Assembly (NCBI GenBank): GCA_965231775.1
Contig: OZ246888.1
Span: 3,741,590-3,805,589, forward strand
Source: Candidatus Binatia bacterium
Lineage (GTDB): Bacteria; Desulfobacterota; Binatia; Bin18
Direction of reading: 5' to 3'
Length of the DNA stretch: 64,000 bases
Shown here in pieces: positions 9,693-36,585 of the stretch. Under the pieces are notes generated by a model, which was not told the DNA's origin, searched no databases, and worked only from the letters and a program-made list of their open reading frames with translations. Position 1 is the stretch's first letter, and the number at the start of each line of letters is the position of its first letter. The translations under genes were made by a program, and so were the position numbers.

Positions 9693-10472
9693 TCAGAAAT
9701 GTGCCAGGTAGCCACCGTCAACCGCCAGCACCTGTCCGGTGATATACGAGGCCGCCGGCGAGGCCAGGAAGACTGCCGCCCCCGCGATTTCCGCAGGCTC
9801 GCCCCAGCGTCCGAGAGATGTTCGTCGTTTCAGCATACTGGCGATTTTCCGGTCCGCGACAAGCGCGCTGTTTGTCTCGGTGGCAAAAAATCCCGGCGCG
9901 ATGGCGTTGACGGTAATACCAAATGGTCCCAGCTCAGCCGCCAGCGCCCGCGTCAGCGCTTCGAGGCCACCCTTGGTCGCGGTATACGCGGCATCCCCAC
10001 TATTGGCAATCGGGCCGGCGATGGAGGTGATATTAATCATACGACCGCCGCCCTGCTCGATCATCAGGCGACCCGCTTCCCGGCTCACATTAAACGGCGC
10101 AAGCAGGTTCACGTCGATCATCTGGCGGACCGCGTCCAGCTCGAAGTCAAAGAGTTTGCGACGATCGCGCCGGCCAACGTTGTTCACCAGAATATCGAGC
10201 CGACCGTAGGTAGCTCGAATGTATTGGAAGGCGGCAGACACGGCCCCTTCGTCGGCAATATCACATACCAGCGCCTCGGCCCGGCCACCCTCAGCGGTAA
10301 TGGCGGCCAGCGCCGGCTCAAGCCGGTCCCGACTGCGACCGTTGACCAGCACCAGGGCGTCATGCCGCCCAAAGGCCCGGCCGATTTCCAGGCCCAACCC
10401 ACGTCCCCCGCCGGTAATCAGCGCGATTTTTCCCTCAAGCGAAAAGGCGGATGGTGTCACGACCGTCGGCAT
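9693..10472 (-). CDS. SDR family oxidoreductase
   Basis: 'KIALITGGGRGLGLEIGRAF' is a Rossmann TGxxxGxG motif, with 'YTATKGG' as the YxxxK motif. Its start overlaps the stop of the downstream-on-plus neighbour. Confidence 0.75.
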   Translation of the reverse strand: MPTVVTPSAFSLEGKIALITGGGRGLGLEIGRAFGRHDALVLVNGRSRDRLEPALAAITAEGGRAEALVCDIADEGAVSAAFQYIRATYGRLDILVNNVGRRDRRKLFDFELDAVRQMIDVNLLAPFNVSREAGRLMIEQGGGRMINITSIAGPIANSGDAAYTATKGGLEALTRALAAELGPFGITVNAIAPGFFATETNSALVADRKIASMLKRRTSLGRWGEPAEIAGAAVFLASPAASYITGQVLAVDGGYLAHF

Positions 10473-19817: not shown

Positions 19818-20681
19818 CTAGGCGTCTGTCTCAGACTGCATCGCCCGGCGCGCCGACCGATAGCCGCGTTGGGCGAGAGAAAATTCCAAGGCTGGTGAGA
19901 GGCGACTGATCCACCACAACAGCCTCCACCAGCCCGGCACGATGATCAGCGCTTTGTTCCGAGCAAGCGCGTCCAACACTTTTTCAGCAAACACAGCCGG
20001 ATCCATGGGCCGGTATTGCCGGATGAATTTTTCCTGGACCTCCGGCGGCATGGGCTGCAACTGCTTGCCGTATTTCCCGCCGTACAGGATGGGCGTCCGA
20101 ATAAACCCAGGGCAGAGCACACTGACGCGGACACCGTAGGGCGCGGCTTCAACCCGGAGGGATTTGGAAAGACCGACCACCGCATGTTTTGTGGTCGCAT
20201 AGCTGACAGCCGCTGGCATGGGCAGCAGACCGGCCATGGAAGCGGTATTGACAATATGGCCGTAGCCCTGGCTGAGCATAACCGGATAGGCCGCCTGTAC
20301 CCCGTTGACCACACCGTGCAGGTTGACGTTCAGGACACTGTCCCAGTCCTCAATCTGACAGACCCGTACCTCTCCTCCGATCGCAATGCCGGCATTGTTG
20401 AACATATAGTCCAGCCGACCCTGATCTTGGGCCGTCGCCCGGACGAGTTGGTCTACCGCGGCGAAGTCTGTGACATCCAGTTCGACCGCGGACGCTTGAC
20501 CCCCGCTTTCCCGGATGCCGGCCGCGACCTCTTGGGCAAGCACTATCTGACGGTCGGCTAAGATGACACACGCCCCACGCCGGGCCAGCGCCTCACTCAA
20601 CGCGCGCCCAATACCCGAGGCCCCACCGGTCATAATCGCCACCGCGCCGTCAAAGATGCGAAGGGTGTTGTCGTGTTCCAT
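19818..20681 (-). CDS. SDR family oxidoreductase
   Basis: I chose start MEHDNT. It has 'VAIMTGGASGIGRALSEALA' and the 'YATTKHAVVGL' YxxxK motif. Confidence 0.7.
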   Translation of the reverse strand: MEHDNTLRIFDGAVAIMTGGASGIGRALSEALARRGACVILADRQIVLAQEVAAGIRESGGQASAVELDVTDFAAVDQLVRATAQDQGRLDYMFNNAGIAIGGEVRVCQIEDWDSVLNVNLHGVVNGVQAAYPVMLSQGYGHIVNTASMAGLLPMPAAVSYATTKHAVVGLSKSLRVEAAPYGVRVSVLCPGFIRTPILYGGKYGKQLQPMPPEVQEKFIRQYRPMDPAVFAEKVLDALARNKALIIVPGWWRLLWWISRLSPALEFSLAQRGYRSARRAMQSETDA

Positions 20682-20694
20682 GTCTGTCTGAAAG

Positions 20695-21033
20695 TCAGTC
20701 GGCCACCGGCACAACACCGACCACCGCCGGACCGTCTCCGACCACACGGGTGGTGTGCCCGCTACCGGTCAGGTCTGCGGCGAGCACGGCATCCCCCGCT
20801 CCACAACGCTGGACCGACCCGTCCTTAAAGCCGATTTCCATCTGGCCCCGTAACACAATCACATACTGGCGTCGGGGAGCGTTATGCCAATCCATAGCGG
20901 TTCCGGCCGGGAGTTCCCGAAAGAAAATCTCCTGGGTCGCCTGTGGCGCTTCCTGGCTCGGTTGGGCGCTCAACGCCGGCTCTTCGATATGCGATTGTCC
21001 GTCATCCCCTGTATACATGTGGAAAATGCTCAT
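20695..21033 (-). CDS. cupin-domain protein
   Basis: 112 aa. The beta-rich 'DWHNAPRRQYVIVLRGQMEIGFKDG...GDAVL' looks like a cupin. Confidence 0.5.
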   Translation of the reverse strand: MSIFHMYTGDDGQSHIEEPALSAQPSQEAPQATQEIFFRELPAGTAMDWHNAPRRQYVIVLRGQMEIGFKDGSVQRCGAGDAVLAADLTGSGHTTRVVGDGPAVVGVVPVAD

Positions 21034-21091
21034 GCTCTTCCTCCTTCAGAAGGGCTGGCAGGAAGGCTCAAAACGGCCCAAAGCGGTCGCT

Positions 21092-21547
21092 CTATGGGGT
21101 GCTTGCCTGAACCGCCTTTAGGGCACAGACACAACCCGCAATCGCAGCGATGGTTCTGACCCAATGCACCGTTTGCCATTGGCTAAGTGCATTAGATATC
21201 TCCGCTACAGGGACCGCCCCCTCAGATAGCGCAGCATTGGCGCCGCTGAAATAGATGGGAAACGTCGCAAGCATACAAAGCGCGCAGACAGATGCCGCGA
21301 TGAGCCAGTTTCGGCTCGGGGTCTTTTTCCAGATGGCCAACCCCAAGGCCAACCAGGTTAAGCCCGTCGCACTAAACCCAAGCGGCATCATGAAGCTGGC
21401 GATGTGAGCGGAGTTATCACGAAAAATCGGCACAAACGATGCAGGATCGAGCGCCTGCCAGTAGGGCACCAGCCCCATGGCGAGAAGCAACAGAGCACCC
21501 GCCAAGAAGCCCAGGAGCACCGTTGCGATTTGTGTCGGTATGTTCAT
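21092..21547 (-). CDS. DUF1772-like small membrane protein
   Basis: There are four predicted TM helices from MNIPTQIATVLLGFLAGALLLLAMG. The assignment is weak. Confidence 0.4.
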   Translation of the reverse strand: MNIPTQIATVLLGFLAGALLLLAMGLVPYWQALDPASFVPIFRDNSAHIASFMMPLGFSATGLTWLALGLAIWKKTPSRNWLIAASVCALCMLATFPIYFSGANAALSEGAVPVAEISNALSQWQTVHWVRTIAAIAGCVCALKAVQASTP

Positions 21548-28719: not shown

Positions 28720-29475
28720 TTACTGCTCCATGCGGGCTAACGCGTCTTGCGTACTGCCCGCGTCGCTATAATTAGCATCCTGGTCAAAGCTCATAAAAAT
28801 CATGCTCACCCCTTCAGGACCGGCGGTGAACGAAGCGGCATGTTCGCCACCAGGAATGAAACGCAGCGCTTTCGGTTCCAGCCGCCTGCCGAGCAGAGAG
28901 GCCGAACCCGAATAGACCACCTCATACCGACCATACTCTGGAACCGGGGGAGTAAACTCGACACCGGCCGGAAACGCGACCAACTCCGCAGTGGGACCGA
29001 AGCTCGGCGGGATCAGCAGCTTGCGTCGAGCGTGTGGACAGCCGGGCATGGGCTGCCACTCGACCTCATGGGCGCAGCGCGTCAGCTCGCGTCCACGCAC
29101 GTTTGCCTGCCAGCGCCGTTTTTTATCGCGCATGACAGCCAAACCACCCGGCCTGGTATGCAGCACAAGCATATCGTGCCCAGCACTGACCGTGAACGGA
29201 CCGTAGGGCGTGTTATGTTCCGTATAGTGCACGGCTGGCGCATCGAGCCGGACCAGCGGGAAGGCCATTGAGCCTTCGAGCAGGACTTGGAATTGCGCCG
29301 CATAATGAAAATGCGGCTCCACCGTATAGTCTTCCGAGATTTGCGCCCGTATGGCTTCGGGTCCACCGTCTCTGCCTTTCAAATACATTTGAAGCTGGGT
29401 TTCCCCTCCGCCCTCAAGGGCTAAGGTTTTCCACGGTACGGTTGAGGGCTCTACGATATACTGATGTGGGTCCAT
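28720..29475 (-). CDS. cupin-like hypothetical protein
   Basis: 'EPHFHYAAQFQVLLEG' is a cupin motif-1-like element. Confidence 0.4.
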   Translation of the reverse strand: MDPHQYIVEPSTVPWKTLALEGGGETQLQMYLKGRDGGPEAIRAQISEDYTVEPHFHYAAQFQVLLEGSMAFPLVRLDAPAVHYTEHNTPYGPFTVSAGHDMLVLHTRPGGLAVMRDKKRRWQANVRGRELTRCAHEVEWQPMPGCPHARRKLLIPPSFGPTAELVAFPAGVEFTPPVPEYGRYEVVYSGSASLLGRRLEPKALRFIPGGEHAASFTAGPEGVSMIFMSFDQDANYSDAGSTQDALARMEQ

Positions 29476-29540
29476 GTCGTCCCTCCTTGTTTGCGTCATT
29501 CACTCCCCATGGGCAGTCTCGTTTCCCGTGCCTTCCCAAT

Positions 29541-30761
29541 CTACTCCACAACCGCTTGATACGTCAAAACCCGCAGCTCACGCCGGATCGGATACGAAGA
29601 GGACGGCATCAGTTGTGTGAGAAAGATGACGATCAAGTCTTCCACTGGATCAACCCAAAAAGTTGTGCTGGCAGCCCCACCCCATGAATACTCACCGGAT
29701 GAGCCAAGAATCTGGGCTTTGACCGGATCAAGCGTAACGGAAAAGCCCAGACCGAACCCAATCCCATCAAAAGGCATCTCACTGAACACCTTCTGGCCCA
29801 TACGGCTCAGATCAACATTGCCCGGCAGATGATTCACGGTCATGAGTTCAACGGTCTTACGGCCAAGGAGGCGTTCACCGTTCAATACGCCTCTATTTCT
29901 AAGCATGAGTAAAAACTTGAGATAGTCACTCGCTGTTGAGACCAGCCCGCCCCCACCTGAGAGAAACGTCGGCTGTCCGCGATACCTACTCTTCGTTGGG
30001 CTATCAATGAGACGAAAGTCCCCCTTTTGATACTCATAGTTTGCGGCCAAGCGGGGTACATCTTCATCCGCAACCGCAAAGGCAGTGTCCCGCATACCCA
30101 GCGGCCCCCAAATATGCTCGCTGAAATAGGCAGCGAGCGACTGCCCTGACAGCAGCTCAACAAGATATCCCAACACGTCAGTGGCCACACTATAACTCCA
30201 GCGCGTTCCCGGAGAGAAAAGTAGCGGGAGTGTACTGAGCTTTTGCACCATGTCGTGTAAACTTCCCTTGGAACTCGACCCTTCAACTCCTTGGGCGCGG
30301 TACAGAGCGTCAACCGGATGAACGTTCATAAAGCCGTAGGTGAAACCGGCTGTATGTGTCAGCAGATCGCGAATCGTTATTTCACGTTCAGCTAGCGTGG
30401 TGTGGTACTGCTGAGCATCTCCGGATTCAAAGACTTCCAAGTGTTTAAATTCAGGAATGAAGGCTGACACTGGGGTATCGAGCTGAAACAATCCTCGCTC
30501 ATACAGCGTCATAAGCGCCACACTGGTGATGGGCTTGGTCATGGAATAGATACGAAAAATGGTGTCTTCTTCAACCGGTGTATGTGCTTCTACATCGCGT
30601 AGTCCGTAACGATTCAGATAAGCTGGCTGGCCACGCCGGGCCACCAGCACCAGATAACCGGGAATTCTCCCGTCATCGACATAGCCCTTGAGATGCTCGG
30701 AGATACGGTTCAGACGGATGCTACTCAGCCCGACGCTTTCTGGGGAAACGGTTTCAATCAT
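29541..30761 (-). CDS. serine hydrolase, class C beta-lactamase-related family
   Basis: 'IYSMTKPITSVALM' is the S-x-x-K active-site motif, and the ~400 aa size is typical. Confidence 0.75.
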   Translation of the reverse strand: MIETVSPESVGLSSIRLNRISEHLKGYVDDGRIPGYLVLVARRGQPAYLNRYGLRDVEAHTPVEEDTIFRIYSMTKPITSVALMTLYERGLFQLDTPVSAFIPEFKHLEVFESGDAQQYHTTLAEREITIRDLLTHTAGFTYGFMNVHPVDALYRAQGVEGSSSKGSLHDMVQKLSTLPLLFSPGTRWSYSVATDVLGYLVELLSGQSLAAYFSEHIWGPLGMRDTAFAVADEDVPRLAANYEYQKGDFRLIDSPTKSRYRGQPTFLSGGGGLVSTASDYLKFLLMLRNRGVLNGERLLGRKTVELMTVNHLPGNVDLSRMGQKVFSEMPFDGIGFGLGFSVTLDPVKAQILGSSGEYSWGGAASTTFWVDPVEDLIVIFLTQLMPSSSYPIRRELRVLTYQAVVE

Positions 30762-30915
30762 GAATGTGCTCCTGAGGACAATCTATGTCCAAGTCTGCCG
30801 CGCTACCTTATTCCATTAGGCAGATAAGCAAAACAGAATGCCCTGGAGTTCGCTAGCTTCCGTTGACTAAAATTGATACTGGTCTGTTCAATCCAATCCA
30901 GACGAAGGAGTCCTG

Positions 30916-32073
30916 ATGGCATACGCAACCGGACGCATATTTTTTGACGCAGACAGCCATATTATGGAGTTGCCGGACTTTCTGACGGCTAACGCGGACC
31001 GTGATGTCGCCGACCAGCTTCCCCCGTTTAATTTTGAAGCCGCAGGGGTGCTCGCTCAGCATGTGAGCCAGTACGTCAACAACGGTCGTCCCGAACAAGA
31101 AGCGCAGAAATTGCGCGACCTGGGCGACCGCTTGATTAGCGGTCCCAAGGGCTATGACGCGCTCGGCGCGTTTGACGCATCCGAACGGACGGATGCGCTC
31201 GACCGCTTGGGCTTTGCCAAACAGTTTGTCTTCTCCTCGCTGAGCACCTCCGTGTTGTTTGACCCAAACGTTGCTCCCGACATTGCCTATGGCGGCTGTC
31301 GGGCGCATAACCGCTCCATGGCGGAATTCTGTGCGGACGAGCGTCTGGTCGGCGTGGGCCTCCTCCCCATTGACGATGTGGAGCGGTCGATTACAGACCT
31401 CGACTATGCGGTGAGTCTTGGGCTGGAAGCCATATGGATTCCCCATCGCTTAGCCAACGGGCATTCGCCCGGTCACACCGACCTCGATCCCCTCTGGGCT
31501 CGCTTTGTTGAACATCAGGTGCCGTTCCTCCTGCACGTGGGCGGGGCCGCGCTCAAAGTCGAGCCAGGCTGGCTCGATAACGGCCGTCCGATTCCCAAGG
31601 ACTGGCTCGGCGGCGGTGAGAACATCCGCAGTAAAGACATGATGGGCCTGCATCATCTGCCCGAGCAGTTCCTGTCCACGATGGTGCTGGACGGCGTGCT
31701 GGAGCGCTTTCCCGAACTGCGCGGTGGGGTCATCGAACTCGGTGCCGGTTGGGTGCCGTCCATGCTGGACCGTCTTGATCTGGTCGCCGGCATCTGGAGT
31801 CGGAGCGAGCCTTTACTCAAAGACTTGCAGCGCACACCTAGCCAGCAAATTATCGATCAGGTCCGCTTCACGCCGTTTGTGTTCGAGGATGTAGGGGCCA
31901 TTATCAATGCCTCTGACCTGCGCCTCTATATGTTCTCCAGCGACTACCCACATCCCGAGGGCGGTCGTGACCCCCTGGGACGTTTCGGTCGGTCATTGGA
32001 AGGACAGAACGCAGAGACCTTGGATCGGTTCTATACGCAGAACTTTGCGGACCTGATGGGGATGAGCGCGTAA
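30916..32073 (+). CDS. amidohydrolase-2 family metal-dependent hydrolase
   Basis: 'FFDADSHIMELPDF' is the N-terminal motif, with 'FSSDYPHPEG' near the C-terminus. Confidence 0.75.
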   Translation: MAYATGRIFFDADSHIMELPDFLTANADRDVADQLPPFNFEAAGVLAQHVSQYVNNGRPEQEAQKLRDLGDRLISGPKGYDALGAFDASERTDALDRLGFAKQFVFSSLSTSVLFDPNVAPDIAYGGCRAHNRSMAEFCADERLVGVGLLPIDDVERSITDLDYAVSLGLEAIWIPHRLANGHSPGHTDLDPLWARFVEHQVPFLLHVGGAALKVEPGWLDNGRPIPKDWLGGGENIRSKDMMGLHHLPEQFLSTMVLDGVLERFPELRGGVIELGAGWVPSMLDRLDLVAGIWSRSEPLLKDLQRTPSQQIIDQVRFTPFVFEDVGAIINASDLRLYMFSSDYPHPEGGRDPLGRFGRSLEGQNAETLDRFYTQNFADLMGMSA

Positions 32074-32320
32074 CGCCTCATTCACGGCATAGGGTGGGTT
32101 TTATCGACCCACCCTACTCTCGGAGGGAGTCCCGTGAGACCCCCTCCTCCTTCAACCCGAAGAGCTGACGCAGAGTAAAAAAACGTTCAGTTCTTCGACT
32201 TCATTCCAGTCGTCAAGGCCAGCGCTGTTTCTCTCCGATTGGCCCACAAAACTGTCAGGTGAAAGTCTGCCTCCTGAGGGCCAGAGGAGTAAATTACCTG
32301 ATTTTCTCCGCCCCATATTA

Positions 32321-32330
32321 TTATTTAACT
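32321..32330. repeat. 10-bp direct repeat TTATTTAACT, left copy flanking the low-GC island
   Basis: An identical 10-mer recurs at about 35565-35574 on the other side of the Fic-OLD gene pair. Confidence 0.4.
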
Positions 32331-32547
32331 ATCTGTTTTTACTCAGAAAACAAAATATGCTTGACATACTGTCAGTTTTACACACATACTGTAAGTATAT
32401 CCCAATTAAAGCACGATTTAAAAAGTGCTTGTCGTTCCTATCCACACGTGGAGTCTACAAATTTCCTCCCCCCCTGGAGTCCGGGAGTCCCCCCTCTCGG
32501 GCTCCCCTTCCTTTTTCGTCATATACACCCGTTTGCTAAATCAGCTT

Positions 32548-34269
32548 TCAAGCATTCCAGGATTTTATACGCTCGACGATTTCCCTCATCTGCTCTCCCC
32601 AATCAAATCGCCCTGCCATGAGGTCCTTTGTCATGTGTGGAGCGCTCTGGATAGCCAAGCGCATCTTATCAAAGTGCTTTCGACTCAGGCGCACTTCGAT
32701 ATACGACGATGTTTCGTTTCGGGGAAAGAAGGACTCATACTGCTCAGGGTCGGGCAGCGACGGCAAGTCTAAGGCTTTCTCAAGAACAGAGCCGGGAAGG
32801 TAATTCTCAATTTCCCTAGCGGTGGTTATCCAAATATGCGCACCGGGTATGTTCTCGACTTCCATGCGAATCCTCAACACCCTGACCTTTAGAGGAGAAT
32901 CCTCGGAAGCGCGGTCTCCGTCACACATAACAACGATGTTCGGATTCACCCGGAACAAATTCGCAAGCTCGGTTTCTTTCTCGGAAGGCTGAAATTCGAT
33001 CTGCGCCAAAAGCGCTCCGCCATAGAAGGCGCATTGATAGTCACGCCCCTCTCGAAGAGCGCCTTCGCTATAGAGTTGAATCCAGCGATTAAGATACGCA
33101 CGGTCCGAAGGCCCCTCCACCCAAACGATGCCGTTTGCCTGAAGCAAATCCGACGGCTTTGCACCTAACTCGGAGACGACTCCAAGGCGATCAAAATGCG
33201 CGGAAACCGTTGTTGTGCGAGCAGTCTCGCCATCATGAGTAACATGGATGATCTGCGCATCCTCCGACATTCCGAAAAGGTCGAGGGCCGTGCTTGAATG
33301 AGTCGTCAGAAAGATCGAGGCTTTTTCGTTAAGAGCGTAATCTTCAAGATACTGAAAAAGTCGTCGTAAGAGTGCCGGGTGAAGATTGTTTTCAAGTTCC
33401 TCAAACGCGAATACGAATTGGGACTTCTCTTTGTTCTCAACTTTGGGAATAACCAATAGGTTCAGCAGCACCAAAAGAACAGTCTTCAGACCACTTCCCG
33501 ATTTGCTGAGTGGAATTAGCCCCTTCTTCTCCTCGCCAAGGTAGACCTCCCAATGGTTTCTTGGTCCAGGTGCTTTTTCATCGTCATGAGATTTTATCTG
33601 GATCCCCGAAAACTTCCCGTCGTCTCTAAAGATCGAATTCAGTACCCCCAGAAGATCATGCTGGATAACCTCACTCGGGTACTGAGGGTTCACACTAGTT
33701 ATGAAACGCCTCATTATATTGGAGGCCCCACTCCCGTCGTGGCCGAGTGCTAGTTCGAGTTCTGGTAGCTCGGTCTTAATGTCGCGATCAGCAAGAAGTC
33801 TGCGGAATGACTTCCCGCTGAGATAGTGAGTTGGGTGACTCACCACCCTTTCAATTGCTGAAATCCTCGCGTTGGTCGAGCGCTCACCAAAAGATGACTC
33901 GAATGTGAAGCCGTCGGGAAAACCCACGTTGTTCGCTGTATACCCATTTGCTTCAATTTCCCACGTTATCTTAGTATCGACAAAATGTTTTCCGTGATCA
34001 TGCCAGTGATTCCTTTCAAGTTCACTGCCTCTTACATGGGCGCCAAACTGCCTTCCCAGAGACACCTCGTCTAACACGCCACGGCATCGATATTGCCAAC
34101 CACGATTGCCGAGTTCGCCTTGGCTTAATGCTTCAACCAAATCCAGTAGATGTGATTTTCCAGAGTTATTCCGTCCGATGATGACGTTGATCGGCTTAAC
34201 AGTATCGAAACCAGCCCACTCTTTTTGAAAACAGAGATGTCCCTTGAAGTATACGGAGTCAGCTTTCAC
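32548..34269 (-). CDS. OLD-family ATP-dependent endonuclease (ABC ATPase + C-terminal TOPRIM)
   Basis: 573 aa. Walker A 'GRNNSGKS', signature-like 'LSKSGSGLKTV', Walker B/D-loop 'FVFAFEELENNLHP', and H-loop 'LTTHS'. The C-terminal TOPRIM has 'IVWVEGPSDRAYL' (Glu) and 'VVMCDGDRA' (DxD). Local GC is clearly below the flanks. Confidence 0.7.
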   Translation of the reverse strand: MKADSVYFKGHLCFQKEWAGFDTVKPINVIIGRNNSGKSHLLDLVEALSQGELGNRGWQYRCRGVLDEVSLGRQFGAHVRGSELERNHWHDHGKHFVDTKITWEIEANGYTANNVGFPDGFTFESSFGERSTNARISAIERVVSHPTHYLSGKSFRRLLADRDIKTELPELELALGHDGSGASNIMRRFITSVNPQYPSEVIQHDLLGVLNSIFRDDGKFSGIQIKSHDDEKAPGPRNHWEVYLGEEKKGLIPLSKSGSGLKTVLLVLLNLLVIPKVENKEKSQFVFAFEELENNLHPALLRRLFQYLEDYALNEKASIFLTTHSSTALDLFGMSEDAQIIHVTHDGETARTTTVSAHFDRLGVVSELGAKPSDLLQANGIVWVEGPSDRAYLNRWIQLYSEGALREGRDYQCAFYGGALLAQIEFQPSEKETELANLFRVNPNIVVMCDGDRASEDSPLKVRVLRIRMEVENIPGAHIWITTAREIENYLPGSVLEKALDLPSLPDPEQYESFFPRNETSSYIEVRLSRKHFDKMRLAIQSAPHMTKDLMAGRFDWGEQMREIVERIKSWNA

Positions 34270-34333
34270 TCTGAGTGTCCTCCCGCACGTCCAGCTTACA
34301 ATTCAACGTGTTGGTGATGAACAGCACCGGTTA

Positions 34334-35500
34334 TCACGGCACTTCGGTTCCTTCATTGATGATAGAAAGATACCTGTCGTAAACGAACACTCGGCCGCGG
34401 CGTTTACCGGTAATCTCACGCGCAACTCCATTCTGGACGAGTAGTTCCATTGCCTTAGAAGCCGTTGCAAAGGAAAGCTGCGTACTGCTACACGCTGCGG
34501 ACAATGAGAGAATCGGCCGTGCCTTGAGTGCATCGTGTATGCGGAGCGCCGACCCGGCCCGTCGGCCTTCGGTTGTCTCGATTCGGCTGCGGTCGTCCTG
34601 AAACATGTGGGCGAGACGTTGGGCAGTCGAGACCGCACTGGTGGCAGTCAGGCGCACGCCTTCGAGGAAGAAGGCAAGCCAAGACTCCCAGTCCCCTGTC
34701 TGGCGCACCTGCTTAAGCAGCTCATAGTAGGTGGCGCGGTTCTGCTTGAAATACAGACTCAGATACAAAAGTGGCTGGTGGAGTACATCAGCGTGGCATA
34801 ACAGAAGGGTTACGAGCAATCGTCCTACACGCCCGTTTCCGTCAAGGAAAGGGTGAATGGTCTCGAACTGCACATGCGCAAGACCGGCACGAAACAGCAC
34901 AGGGAGTCCGTCTTCCTCGGCGTGCAGGAAACGCTCAAACCTCGCCAGGCAGTCAGGTACGGCTGTATGCGGAGGCGGGACAAAGACGGCATTACCGGGG
35001 CGGGTACCGCCGATCCAGTTCTGTGAACGGCGGAACTCGCCAGGGGTTTTATCGTCCCCCCGCCCACGTGATAGCAGCACGCCGTGAATCTCACGGAGTA
35101 AGCGATTTGACAGCGGGAAGTTCTCCCGCAGGCGGCGCAATCCGTGGTTGAGCGCCGCTACGTAGTTCGAGACTTCGACCACATCATCGAACGGAACTCC
35201 AGGCGCTTCGTCCAACTCGAAAAGCAAGAGGTCGGACAGCGATGACTGTGTTCCCTCTATCTGAGAGGAGAGTACCGCTTCCTTCCGCACATACGCGTAG
35301 AGAAAAAGTGCCTCATCCGGCAGAAGGGTCGAGACACTATCTAACCGGCCCAAGGCAAGCACCGCTGATTCAAGGGCCTGCTGCAAAGGGCCGTCCAGAA
35401 CCAGCGCTGGGTTTGGCGGGAGCGGTGCCGGAATGAAGGCTCTGACCTGCTCACCTCCGACGCTCGTCACCTCATATATGCCAATCTCTCCGCGTCGCAT
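34334..35500 (-). CDS. Fic-family protein (Fic_N + Fic core HPFLDGNGRVGR + C-terminal winged helix), class II with N-terminal inhibitory SxxxEG motif
   Basis: It has the perfect Fic motif HPFxDGNGRxxR. The N-terminal 'SSQIEGTQ' matches the [ST]xxxE[GN] autoinhibition motif. The C-terminal 'ITGKRRGRVFVYDRYL' is wHTH-like. It lies 64 bp upstream of, and co-directional with, the OLD gene. Confidence 0.8.
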   Translation of the reverse strand: MRRGEIGIYEVTSVGGEQVRAFIPAPLPPNPALVLDGPLQQALESAVLALGRLDSVSTLLPDEALFLYAYVRKEAVLSSQIEGTQSSLSDLLLFELDEAPGVPFDDVVEVSNYVAALNHGLRRLRENFPLSNRLLREIHGVLLSRGRGDDKTPGEFRRSQNWIGGTRPGNAVFVPPPHTAVPDCLARFERFLHAEEDGLPVLFRAGLAHVQFETIHPFLDGNGRVGRLLVTLLLCHADVLHQPLLYLSLYFKQNRATYYELLKQVRQTGDWESWLAFFLEGVRLTATSAVSTAQRLAHMFQDDRSRIETTEGRRAGSALRIHDALKARPILSLSAACSSTQLSFATASKAMELLVQNGVAREITGKRRGRVFVYDRYLSIINEGTEVP

Positions 35501-35507
35501 AATAGCA

Positions 35508-35550
35508 GACGTTTATCTTACTTTTGTCGGACGTTTATTTTACTTTTCTC
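35508..35550 (-). promoter_or_regulatory. tandem ~21-bp direct repeats in the Fic upstream region (putative promoter/operator)
   Basis: GACGTTTATCTTACTTTTGTCG is followed by GACGTTTATTTTACTTTTCTC, 8-50 nt upstream of the Fic ATG. Each copy carries a -10-like TAAGAT or TAAAAT on the coding strand. Confidence 0.4.
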
Positions 35551-35564
35551 AATAACGCGTTTCG

Positions 35565-35574
35565 TTATTTAACT
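35565..35574. repeat. 10-bp direct repeat TTATTTAACT, right copy flanking the low-GC island
   Basis: It matches 32321-32330, and the two copies bracket about 3.25 kb. Confidence 0.4.
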
Positions 35575-35727
35575 TTAATAGCTAAAACTAAAATAACAAG
35601 GGCAGCTACCAGCTCATTCTTCGATTGAAATTTAATACAGCCTCCGAATACGATGTACCGGGTTTTCTTGAACCACGGTTCGGAGTACAGAGGAAAGCGC
35701 CAGAAAACTTAGTAAGGAGGAGAGCAT

Positions 35728-36585
35728 ATGGATATTGGCGTATTCTATTTCACGTCCGGCGAGTCGGCAGACCCTGCGGTTGTAGCGAAAAAGGCCGAAG
35801 AACTGGGCTTTGCCTCGTTTTGGGTGCCGGAACATCCGGTCCTGCCGGTGCATACCACCGTGGGCTATCCCGCGGCCCCGGACCAGCCGATTCCGAGAAC
35901 GGTCGGGATTATTTCCGACCCGTTTGTGTCGCTGGCGCGGGCCTCGGCCACGACCACGAAGATCAAGCTGGGCACCGGGATTTGCCTCGTGCCGGAACGC
36001 AACCCGTTGTTGCTGGCCAAGGAGATCGCCACGCTGGACCACTATTCGGGCGGACGTTTTCTGTTTGGCATCGGGGCCGGTTGGCAAAAAGAAGAGTGTG
36101 AGATCATGGGCGGCGACTTTCCGCACCGCTGGACCCAGACCCGCGATTCGATTCTAGCGATGAAAGAGCTGTGGACCACGGACGAATCCGAATATCACGG
36201 CCGGTATTACGACTTCCCCGCGGTCAAGTGCTTTCCCAAGCCGGCCCAAAATCCGCATCCGCCCGTTATTCTGGGTGGCTCGGCCAAGAATGTGTTCAAA
36301 CGGACGGTGGAGTGGGGGGACGGCTGGATGCCAGTCAGCATCTCGCCCGATGAGATTCGACGCGGACGCGAGACCCTGAACGAGCTAGCTGCCCAGGCCG
36401 GGCGCGATCCCCAGTCCATCTCCGTGCTCGCCTTTGGGCAGCCGGGGCAGTTGCGCAGCCGTGACCAGGCCCAGGCACTCGGAGAGGCCGGTGCGGAACA
36501 CGCCATTATTTGGCTCAATAAATCTCAGGAAGAAGAAGTCATTGCGGAGTTAGAGGGATTAGCCGCAGAAATGCTGGGCGCATAA
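35728..36585 (+). CDS. LLM-class F420-dependent oxidoreductase
   Basis: 285 aa. 'FASFWVPEHPVLP' and 'GGRFLFGIGAGW' are luciferase-like TIM-barrel motifs of the short F420-type subgroup. Confidence 0.75.
   Translation: MDIGVFYFTSGESADPAVVAKKAEELGFASFWVPEHPVLPVHTTVGYPAAPDQPIPRTVGIISDPFVSLARASATTTKIKLGTGICLVPERNPLLLAKEIATLDHYSGGRFLFGIGAGWQKEECEIMGGDFPHRWTQTRDSILAMKELWTTDESEYHGRYYDFPAVKCFPKPAQNPHPPVILGGSAKNVFKRTVEWGDGWMPVSISPDEIRRGRETLNELAAQAGRDPQSISVLAFGQPGQLRSRDQAQALGEAGAEHAIIWLNKSQEEEVIAELEGLAAEMLGA

What the first reader, a model, noticed from the sequence alone, without database searches (positions are those of the whole stretch)
32074..35727. Compact low-GC island carrying a Fic-family protein followed by an OLD-family ATPase-TOPRIM nuclease, a two-gene module not matching a named system
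Over 32.1-35.7 kb the base composition drops sharply (AT-rich runs, many A/T codons) against 62-65% GC flanks made of paralogous metabolic genes.

The island holds exactly two genes on the minus strand, 64 bp apart. The first is a class II Fic protein (Fic_N, HPFLDGNGRVGR, wHTH). Directly downstream is a 573-aa OLD-family nuclease (ABC ATPase with GRNNSGKS and EELENNLHP, plus a TOPRIM with the VEG and DGD acidic motifs).

Both domain families are established residents of phage-defence and toxin islands: OLD in P2 Old, Gabija GajA and PARIS AriA/B; Fic/Doc in toxin-antitoxin and abortive-infection contexts. The established partners are missing here. There is no UvrD-like helicase (Gabija), no separate DUF4435 gene (PARIS) and no reverse transcriptase. 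Instead the OLD gene is paired with an AMPylator-type enzyme.

I am not aware of a described Fic-OLD system. The tight spacing, shared strand, shared anomalous composition and flanking repeats suggest one horizontally acquired functional unit, possibly a defence or toxin-effector module.
Basis: partly seen in the sequence, partly recalled or inferred. Interest (0 to 1): 0.8.

Follow-up and report, generated by a model that had tools for sequence, protein, structure and literature searches.

The report
Two defence genes, fossil restriction locus
A SoFic-type Fic enzyme and an OLD-like ATPase-nuclease lie side by side here only because the type I restriction-modification genes that once separated them were deleted, so this is the remnant of a known kind of defence island and not a new two-gene system.

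Summary
The two genes are real: Fic at 34334-35500 and an ABC-ATPase/TOPRIM protein at 32548-34269, both on the minus strand, 64 bp apart.

The "new Fic-OLD system" reading does not hold.
- The Fic protein matches the named single-gene defence system SoFic (PADLOC E 2e-117).
- The ATPase belongs to a large family of single-gene, OLD-like proteins (1156 clusters at 50% identity). It has no conserved partner.
- Fic lies within 6 kb in only 6 of 80 other loci, and five of those six are inside a type I restriction-modification (R-M) operon.
- None of 80 loci holding close Fic homologues carries the ATPase.

Sister Binatia genomes hold a complete operon at the same chromosomal site: hsdM-Fic-...-hsdS-ATPase-...-hsdR. 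The window's 64-bp gap is a fossil of the last ~20 codons of hsdS (…CKLDVRED…, against …VTGKLDVRED… in intact genes). The adjacency therefore comes from loss of the hsd genes.

Both survivors remain under purifying selection (dN/dS 0.16-0.24).

Only the ATPase gene and the spacers are low in GC. The Fic gene is not, and there are no flanking repeats.

The TOPRIM call rests on a predicted structure and six invariant acidic residues. No sequence profile detects it.

Verdict: an ordinary kind of locus with an instructive history.

The parts
34334..35500 (-). SoFic-type class II Fic protein (388 aa). It has Fic_N, a Fic core with HPFLDGNGRVGR (residues 216-227), the inhibitory motif SSQIEG (78-83), and a C-terminal region that aligns with SoFic to residue 382.
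   Evidence: Pfam Fic_N E 3.5e-26 and Fic E 5.6e-18. PADLOC SoFic E 2.3e-117, covering 5-359 of 361 profile positions. PDB SoFic chains 9vjc, 9tcl, 3eqx and 3zcn at E 1e-32 to 7e-39 over residues 24-382. Motifs. NCBIfam SoFic equivalog scores 153.6 bits against a cut-off of 550.
32548..34269 (-). 573-aa ABC ATPase fused to a C-terminal TOPRIM-like nuclease domain. It is a single-gene, OLD-like (Class 1-like) protein from a large family that has no Pfam or PADLOC model of its own.
   Evidence: Pfam AAA_15 and AAA_21. More than 120 full-length homologues at 65% identity or above. 1156 clusters at 50% identity with E <= 1e-30. AlphaFold model with pLDDT 86.3. The top 8 Foldseek hits are the retron Eco8 OLD nuclease and Gabija GajA, aligned over about 550-680 columns; Ts OLD 6p74 scores E 1.3e-8.
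34153..34176 (-). Walker A / P-loop GRNNSGKS (residues 32-39) of the ABC ATPase.
   Evidence: G32, N34, N35, G37, K38 and S39 are invariant in 71 homologues.
32794..33138 (-). TOPRIM-like core (residues 378-492). Order of elements: b1, E385, a1 (with D389), b2, a2, b3, D450-G-D452, a3, b4, E486-I-E488.
   Evidence: DSSP secondary structure of the model. All six acidic residues are invariant in 71 sequences spanning 35-80% identity. Their spacing equals that of the OLD metal A/B ligands: Ts E377/D381/D431/D433/S478/E480 and P2 E398/E402/D453/D455/D541/E543 (PMC7049728). No sequence profile detects the domain. The only PADLOC hit is PDC-M55B at E 2e-6.
34259..34330 (-). Fossil of the 3' end of hsdS. 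It is a 23-codon open stretch, PVLFITNTLNCKLDVREDTQSES, whose stop codon overlaps the ATPase start. It fills the '64-bp gap'.
   Evidence: Intact hsdS genes in L004, L006 and L013 (424-503 codons) end with ...YRxxLIxxVVTGKLDVRED...* in the same position and frame relative to the ATPase start. L003 carries the same fossil.
35501..35727 (-). AT-rich spacer (GC 0.38) upstream of Fic. It is the probable promoter region (inferred). It replaces about 3.2 kb that holds hsdM in sister genomes.
   Evidence: GC. Homologous only to L003. L004 has hsdM in this interval.
32074..32547 (-). 474-bp AT-rich non-coding stretch downstream of the ATPase. It replaces 4.9-8.6 kb that holds further cargo and hsdR in sister genomes. 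No function is assigned.
   Evidence: No Rfam match. Only short unconserved ORFs. Homologous only to L003. Comparison with L004, L006 and L043.
35728..36585 (+). Bac_luciferase-like oxidoreductase gene. It is the conserved left anchor of the variable site.
   Evidence: 90-94% DNA identity to L003, L004 and L006 right up to the island edge. Pfam annotation of the orthologues.
30916..32073 (+). Amidohydro_2 gene. It is the conserved right anchor of the variable site in the window, L003 and L004.
   Evidence: 92% DNA identity to L004 positions 20310-21540. Pfam annotation.

Best explanation
The locus is the eroded remnant of a type I restriction-modification (R-M) operon that carried nested defence genes.

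In the ancestor, as in sister Binatia genomes today, the site between the luciferase-like gene and the amidohydrolase gene held this order: hsdM, Fic, variable cargo, hsdS, ATPase-TOPRIM, variable cargo, hsdR. Three segments were then lost: hsdM; the cargo plus most of hsdS; and the downstream cargo plus hsdR. Two independent single-gene modules remained next to each other.

Module 1 is a SoFic-type AMP-transferase. By analogy with SoFic, it is held in check by its inhibitory helix and AMPylates cell proteins on infection, which stops growth.

Module 2 is a Class 1-like OLD nuclease. By analogy with OLD proteins, an ABC ATPase with a variable insert acts as sensor and switch, and a two-metal TOPRIM domain nicks or degrades DNA.

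Shown here: the genes, their families, the synteny, the hsdS fossil, purifying selection, and the absence of a conserved Fic-ATPase linkage. Inferred: that each gene still protects against phage, and the biochemical activities.
For: 1. Same site, full operon in sister genomes. In L004/L083 and L006/L085 the flanking genes match the window at 90-94% DNA identity. Between them lies hsdM - Fic - (TIR etc.) - hsdS - ATPase - (DarT/Macro, AAA_21+DUF4276) - hsdR. L043/L084 and L002 have the same order.

2. The hsdS fossil. The 64-bp gap encodes ...LNCKLDVREDTQSES*, ending on the same stop that overlaps the ATPase start. Intact 424-503-codon hsdS genes in L004, L006 and L013 end ...VTGKLDVRED...* at that position.

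3. No conserved partner. Among the 80 other loci the commonest neighbours are hsdS (14 loci), hsdR (14), hsdM (11) and Fic (6). Nothing else recurs beyond lineage synteny.

4. The Fic side. 0 of 80 loci hold the ATPase. Among the 22 loci with at least 3 kb on both sides, 8 hold hsd genes.

5. Each family stands alone elsewhere. The ATPase occurs solo in an integrase-bearing island with GIY-YIG, Mrr_cat and HEPN genes. It also occurs beside a filamentous prophage, and beside a transposase and a NACHT protein. SoFic is a described single-gene system (PMC12249575).

6. Both genes are maintained. dN/dS is 0.24 for the ATPase and 0.16 for Fic against L003. All family-invariant catalytic residues are present.

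7. Nesting of defence genes in type I R-M operons is a described phenomenon (bioRxiv 10.1101/2024.01.29.577857).
Against: - No phenotype was tested. Defence activity of either gene is inferred from family membership.
- The TOPRIM assignment rests on a predicted structure, on topology and on conserved acidic residues. The C-terminal domain alone gives no Pfam, PDB or hhalign match, and no domain-level superposition could be run.
- The Fic protein scores far below NCBIfam's SoFic equivalog cut-off, so it is a relative and not an orthologue.
- The same two genes survived three deletions and are kept in two genomes. Their 64-bp spacing with no predicted terminator allows co-transcription. This is compatible with some functional link.
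- Only 64 kb of the genome was visible, so a type I R-M system elsewhere cannot be excluded.
Confidence: 0.72

Rival explanations
1. This is a genuine two-gene Fic-OLD system. The two proteins would work together, for example the ATPase-nuclease sensing infection and the Fic enzyme acting as effector or regulator, and they would be inherited as one unit.
For: - Same strand, 64 bp apart, with no terminator predicted between them.
- Both genes were kept after loss of the hsd genes, and both are under purifying selection in the window and in L003.
- They co-occur in 6 other loci, including a distant one, L035 from a Pirellulaceae genome.
Against: - 74 of 80 other ATPase loci lack a Fic within 6 kb.
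- 0 of 80 Fic loci have the ATPase.
- In L002, L004, L006 and L043 the two genes are 1.6-3.9 kb apart, with hsdS, TIR and other genes between them.
- In L006 the Fic allele is only 50% identical while the ATPase is 77% identical. The two genes therefore do not co-evolve.
- The window and L003 share the same junctions, so they represent one event.
Confidence: 0.08
2. The genes are orphaned R-M guardians. In this reading the ATPase-TOPRIM protein, and perhaps Fic, normally monitor a type I R-M complex as PrrC and PARIS do. They would fire when a phage inhibits restriction. Here they would either guard a type I system encoded elsewhere in the genome or have become constitutive stand-alone sensors.
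For: - The ATPase sits between hsdS and hsdR on the same strand in 12 of the 16 loci that hold hsd genes (L002, L004, L006, L013, L016, L021, L033, L037, L042 and L043 with both genes flanking it; L005 and L029 with hsdS upstream only).
- In five loci the start is within 15 bp of the hsdS end, or overlaps it: L004, L005, L006, L016 and L042.
- hsdS fossils persist upstream of the ATPase in hsd-less loci L018, L023, L027 and L051, and also in L034 and L043, where hsd genes remain elsewhere in the locus.
- PrrC and PARIS are ABC-ATPase-plus-nuclease guardians of type I R-M systems (PMC12707154; bioRxiv 10.1101/2024.01.29.577857).
Against: - About 80% of loci have no hsd gene nearby.
- Members sit in unrelated islands and beside prophages, so the protein does not need a cognate R-M system in cis.
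- No interaction data exist.
- Nesting may reflect only a permissive insertion site.
Confidence: 0.15
3. The genes are decaying leftovers. After the R-M genes were lost, the two genes would be non-functional passengers on the way to deletion.
For: - The locus has clearly been eroded: three segments are lost and an hsdS fossil remains.
- In sister genome L083 both hsdM and hsdR are split into two ORFs, which shows decay in this island type.
Against: - Both ORFs are intact in two genomes that have diverged by dS 0.27-0.48.
- dN/dS is 0.16-0.24, well below 1.
- Every invariant catalytic residue is retained.
- A good Shine-Dalgarno sequence (GGGAGGA) lies 8 nt before the ATPase start.
Confidence: 0.05

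Closest known systems
SoFic (Shewanella oneidensis Fic; single-gene anti-phage system, class II Fic AMP-transferase)
   Same: Same architecture along the whole protein: Fic_N, Fic core and C-terminal domain. It has the catalytic motif HxFx(D/E)GNGRxxR and the inhibitory (S/T)xxxE(G/N) motif. The PADLOC SoFic model matches end to end at E 2.3e-117.
   Different: It scores 153.6 bits against NCBIfam's equivalog cut-off of 550. There is no small downstream ORF like the 47-aa AS1 antitoxin reported for E. coli Sofic (PMC12249575); the gap holds the hsdS fossil instead. In relatives it is often nested behind hsdM in type I R-M operons.
Class 1 OLD family nucleases (P2 Old, Thermus scotoductus OLD, Vibrio cholerae OLD, E. 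coli YbjD)
   Same: [quoted passage not shown] The pattern of six acidic metal ligands is the same. There is no helicase, reverse transcriptase or separate TOPRIM partner.
   Different: The TOPRIM domain is too diverged for Pfam, PDB-HMM or hhalign detection. Only the ATPase half aligns to P2 Old (E 1.5e-4). No basic residue lies at +7 from the E-x-E motif as in Ts R487 or P2 K550; an invariant K535 in the C-terminal helices may substitute, which is an inference. About one locus in five is nested in a type I R-M operon, whereas Class 1 OLDs are described as isolated genes (PMC10568477).
HEC-04 and the 'guilt-by-embedding' candidates (Payne, Hughes, Fineran, Jackson 2024)
   Same: A single-protein ABC ATPase plus TOPRIM found nested inside another defence system. 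The same logic applies, that nested genes are defence genes.
   Different: The PADLOC HEC-04 model matches only residues 273-330 (E 3.8e-10), so this is a different family. HEC-04 was found in Hma systems, while this family is found behind hsdS of type I R-M.
PrrC / PARIS (AriAB): guardians of type I R-M
   Same: An ABC-type ATPase coupled to a nuclease, encoded inside or beside type I R-M operons. The best PADLOC ATPase hits are AriA models at E about 1e-19 (PMC12707154).
   Different: There is no anticodon-nuclease domain as in PrrC. There is no separate DUF4435 AriB gene, since the nuclease is fused. No evidence was obtained for tRNA targeting or for activation by anti-restriction proteins.

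Membership tests
SoFic defence system | Fic_N plus Fic domains, with full-length similarity to SoFic | tested here: met
   Pfam Fic_N and Fic. PADLOC SoFic E 2.3e-117 over 5-359 of 361 positions. PDB SoFic chains aligned over residues 24-382.
SoFic defence system | Catalytic motif HxFx(D/E)GNGRxxR and inhibitory motif (S/T)xxxE(G/N) | tested here: met
   HPFLDGNGRVGR at 216-227 and SSQIEG at 78-83.
SoFic defence system | Orthology by NCBIfam equivalog NF046030 (cut-off 550 bits) | tested here: not met
   153.6 bits. It is a relative, not an equivalog.
SoFic defence system | Protects against phage as a single gene | not testable with these tools
   Needs plaque assays.
OLD family nuclease, Class 1 | N-terminal ABC ATPase (Walker A, signature, Walker B, H-loop) | tested here: met
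OLD family nuclease, Class 1 | C-terminal TOPRIM fold with metal A ligands (E, DxD) and metal B ligands (E/D at +4, S/T/D-x-E) | tested here: met
   The predicted topology is b1-E385-a1(D389)-b2-a2-b3-D450xD452-a3-b4-E486xE488. All six residues are invariant in 71 sequences. The spacing is that of Ts, Bp and P2 OLD. OLD proteins top the Foldseek list with full-length alignments. Caveat: this rests on a prediction, and no domain-level superposition was run.
OLD family nuclease, Class 1 | TOPRIM domain recognisable by sequence profiles of the OLD family | tested here: not met
   No Pfam hit at E <= 10. PDB hmmsearch with the C-terminal profile finds no TOPRIM. hhalign against P2 Old and YbjD gives probability below 1%.
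OLD family nuclease, Class 1 | Single gene of 500-600 aa without a helicase, reverse transcriptase or split TOPRIM partner | tested here: met
   573 aa. No conserved neighbour across 81 loci.
Gabija (Class 2 OLD) | [quoted passage not shown] | tested here: not met
   474 bp of non-coding DNA, then Amidohydro_2. No helicase cluster among the neighbours.
Retron-associated OLD (Class 3) | Adjacent reverse transcriptase and msr/msd non-coding RNA | tested here: not met
   No such ORF. No Rfam match in 31500-36200. NCBIfam retron Eco8 effector scores 33 bits against a cut-off of 250.
PARIS (Class 4 OLD) | Separate AriA ATPase and AriB DUF4435/TOPRIM genes | tested here: not met
   One fused ORF. 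AriA models match only part of the ATPase. No DUF4435 hit.
Defence genes nested in a type I R-M operon | hsdM, hsdS and hsdR around the gene in the same locus | tested here: not met
   The 64-kb window has no hsd genes, only a 23-codon hsdS fossil. The feature is met in sister loci L002, L004, L006 and L043.

The most novel reading that the evidence does not exclude
The ATPase-TOPRIM family may be an undescribed guardian of type I restriction-modification systems. It would be born directly behind hsdS, with its start codon overlapping the hsdS stop, and would be activated when phage proteins disable the restriction complex, like PrrC or PARIS but with an OLD-type nuclease. The window would then show an orphaned guardian, together with SoFic, that has outlived the system it guarded. 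The many hsdS fossils would record repeated escapes of this kind.
Probability: 0.15. Interest if true: 0.6.

Novelty: new member of a known kind. Interest (0 to 1): 0.3.

Why it matters
Gene adjacency alone can mislead defence-system discovery. Here a tight, same-strand pair of defence-type genes is a deletion scar and not a system.

The case also flags a large family of single-gene ABC ATPase-TOPRIM proteins (1156 clusters at 50% identity). No member has been characterised, current Pfam and PADLOC models do not describe it as a whole, and it is repeatedly found immediately behind hsdS. That makes it a reasonable candidate for experimental defence testing, and for asking whether OLD-type nucleases can act as back-ups to type I restriction.

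The hsdS fossil gives a simple marker for tracing how nested defence genes leave their host operons.

Tried and rejected
- First structure prediction, with a shallow alignment of 24 sequences at 65% identity or above. The C-terminal domain had pLDDT below 50 and the model was unusable. A profile search gave no extra diversity. Querying with a 36%-identical Alteromonas homologue did, and this raised pLDDT to 86.
- Sequence tests of the C-terminal domain alone all failed: Pfam at E <= 10, a PDB profile search, and hhalign against P2 Old and E. coli YbjD.
- I searched for hsdM or hsdR remnants in the two outer spacers with blastn-short and found none.
- I looked for flanking direct or inverted repeats, tRNA genes, an integrase, and a non-coding RNA or small conserved ORF in the 474-bp spacer. 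Nothing convincing turned up.
- I looked for an AS1-like small antitoxin ORF after Fic. There is no room for one in the 64-bp gap.
- The supplements of the guilt-by-embedding paper did not give a usable annotation for PDC-M55B.
- The idea that the pair is ancestral and that R-M genes were inserted around it is rejected because of the hsdS fossil.

Full report
**Observation.** The region 32074-35727 is exactly the space between an Amidohydro_2 gene (30916-32073, +) and a Bac_luciferase-like gene (35728-36585, +). It holds two intact minus-strand ORFs, 64 bp apart: a 388-aa protein at 34334-35500 and a 573-aa protein at 32548-34269. The composition claim is only partly right. The ATPase gene is 0.495 GC and the spacers are 0.48 and 0.38. 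The Fic gene is 0.58, equal to the window mean of 0.585, and the flanking genes are 0.59-0.61. No convincing flanking repeats, tRNA genes or integrase were found.

**The Fic protein.** Pfam finds Fic_N and Fic. PADLOC's SoFic model matches end to end at E 2.3e-117. Solved SoFic structures align over residues 24-382 at E 1e-32 to 7e-39. The catalytic motif HPFLDGNGRVGR and the inhibitory motif SSQIEG are present. SoFic is a named single-gene anti-phage system, so 'not matching a named system' is wrong for this gene. It is a relative and not an orthologue: NCBIfam's equivalog model gives 153.6 bits against a cut-off of 550.

**The ATPase-TOPRIM protein.** Pfam sees only AAA_15 and AAA_21. The last 240 residues give no Pfam hit even at E 10. 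PADLOC models (AriA, AbiLi, GajA, retron ATPase-Toprim, HEC-04) match parts of the ATPase only.
- The family is large and well conserved. More than 120 full-length homologues reach 65% identity or above across several phyla, and 1156 clusters at 50% identity score E <= 1e-30.
- A first model from a shallow alignment failed for the C-terminus. With 71 sequences spanning 35-80% identity the model reached pLDDT 86.3.
- The C-terminal core has TOPRIM topology. E385 follows strand 1, D389 sits four residues later, D450-G-D452 follows strand 3, and E486-I-E488 follows strand 4. All six residues are invariant in the 71 sequences.
- Sequence-only tests of the C-terminal domain fail. The OLD/TOPRIM call is therefore well supported but rests on prediction.

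**Is the pair conserved?** I fetched 80 species-level loci that encode the ATPase, each with 10-kb flanks.
- tblastn and unbiased clustering of neighbours show no universal partner. hsdS and hsdR occur in 14 loci each, hsdM in 11, and Fic in only 6.
- From the other side, 80 metagenomic loci with Fic homologues at 58-80% identity contain the ATPase in 0 cases. Among the 22 with at least 3 kb on both sides, 8 hold type I R-M genes.
- The common denominator of both genes is therefore type I R-M, not each other.
- Solo copies of the ATPase lie in an integrase-bearing island with GIY-YIG, Mrr_cat and HEPN genes. Others lie beside a filamentous prophage, and beside a transposase and a NACHT protein.
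- The ATPase gene is lower in GC than its flanks in 73 of 73 loci, with a median difference of -0.10.

**What happened here.** The closest relatives are Candidatus Binatia genomes.
- L003 is collinear with the window at about 91% identity and has the same two-gene arrangement.
- In L004/L083 and L006/L085 the same flanking genes (90-94% identity) enclose a full operon: hsdM - Fic - (ThsB_TIR and others) - hsdS - ATPase - (DarT/Macro, AAA_21+DUF4276) - hsdR. L043/L084 and L002 have the same order.
- Relative to L004 the window lacks three blocks: 3.2 kb with hsdM, 3 kb with cargo and hsdS, and 8.6 kb with cargo and hsdR.
- The direction of change is settled by a fossil. In L004, L006 and L013, intact hsdS genes of 424-503 codons end ...YRxxLIxxVVTGKLDVRED...* with the stop overlapping the ATPase start.
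- In the window the 64-bp gap reads PVLFITNTLNCKLDVREDTQSES* in the same frame and register. L003 has the same relic.
- Similar truncated hsdS tails precede the ATPase in L018, L023, L027, L034, L043 and L051.

**State of the survivors.** Against L003, dN/dS is 0.24 for the ATPase and 0.16 for Fic, compared with 0.06-0.10 for the flanking genes. Both are therefore maintained. The ATPase allele is more diverged (dS 0.48) than the flanks (0.21-0.28), which suggests cassette exchange. No terminator is predicted between the genes, so co-transcription is possible.

**Mechanism (inferred).** These are two independent modules.
- The Fic enzyme, by analogy with SoFic, is auto-inhibited and AMPylates host proteins on infection (PMC12249575).
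- The ATPase-TOPRIM protein, by analogy with Class 1 OLD nucleases and HEC-04, uses its ABC ATPase as a switch and its two-metal TOPRIM domain to nick or degrade DNA (PMC7049728, PMC12392090 and bioRxiv 10.1101/2024.01.29.577857).
- Its frequent position right behind hsdS leaves room for a PrrC/PARIS-like guardian role (PMC12707154). That was not tested.

**Comparison and verdict.** Nesting of defence genes in type I R-M operons is already described, as are SoFic and single-gene OLD nucleases. What is new is modest. It consists of a large, uncharacterised, sequence-divergent OLD-like clade tied to hsdS, and a clear example of an R-M operon eroding to leave its cargo. The proposed Fic-OLD system is not supported.

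Noticed in passing
L018, L023, L027, L034, L043 and L051, directly upstream of the ATPase start (about locus position 9930-10010): Truncated hsdS 3' tails (...VTGKIDMREKAAL*, 12-40 codons; 124 open codons in L051) precede the ATPase. Four of these loci have no detectable hsd gene, L034 keeps only hsdR, and L043 keeps its hsd genes elsewhere. This suggests repeated loss or displacement of hsdS next to this gene.
   Followed up: partly
window 32548-34269 compared with L003: The ATPase allele is much more diverged between the two syntenic genomes (83.8% nucleotide identity, dS 0.48) than Fic (dS 0.27) or the flanking genes (dS 0.21-0.28). It is as far from L003 as from L004, L006 and L043. This suggests replacement of the cassette by recombination.
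   Followed up: partly
73 loci among L001-L082 plus the window: The ATPase gene has lower GC than its flanks in 73 of 73 cases (median -0.10), across hosts ranging from 33% to 73% GC.
   Followed up: yes
L083 2793-18460, L084 13-16523, L085 3462-16452: The type I R-M operon at this Binatia site is a nest for many other defence-type genes. These include ThsB_TIR, DarT plus Macro, AAA_21 plus DUF4276, HicA, and PRTase-CE plus a NADAR/Methylase_S fusion. A conserved 128-aa antisense ORF lies between hsdM and Fic. In L083 both hsdM and hsdR are split into two ORFs, from either frameshifts or assembly errors.
   Followed up: no
window 29541-32073: The Amidohydro_2 gene plus the beta-lactamase-like gene (GC 0.52, also below the window mean) are absent at this position in L006 and L043. 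There the island abuts the orthologue of window 28720-29499. The right border of the variable site is therefore itself polymorphic.
   Followed up: partly
ATPase residues about 44-235 (window 33565-34140): Nearly all variation within the family lies in the insert between Walker A and the signature motif. Many representatives match the query only from about residue 150 onward, in two stretches. This hints at swapping of this presumed sensor region.
   Followed up: no
L169 1-8695 (Vibrio mimicus): A family member lies immediately after a filamentous-prophage module (Rep_trans, Zot). It may be prophage cargo.
   Followed up: no
L002 1979-2455, L004 8155-8736, L043 5158-5664, L105 3167-3574: A small ORF with faint similarity to the Y1 (IS200/RAYT-like) transposase recurs between Fic and hsdS in the nested operons. 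It is missing from the window.
   Followed up: no
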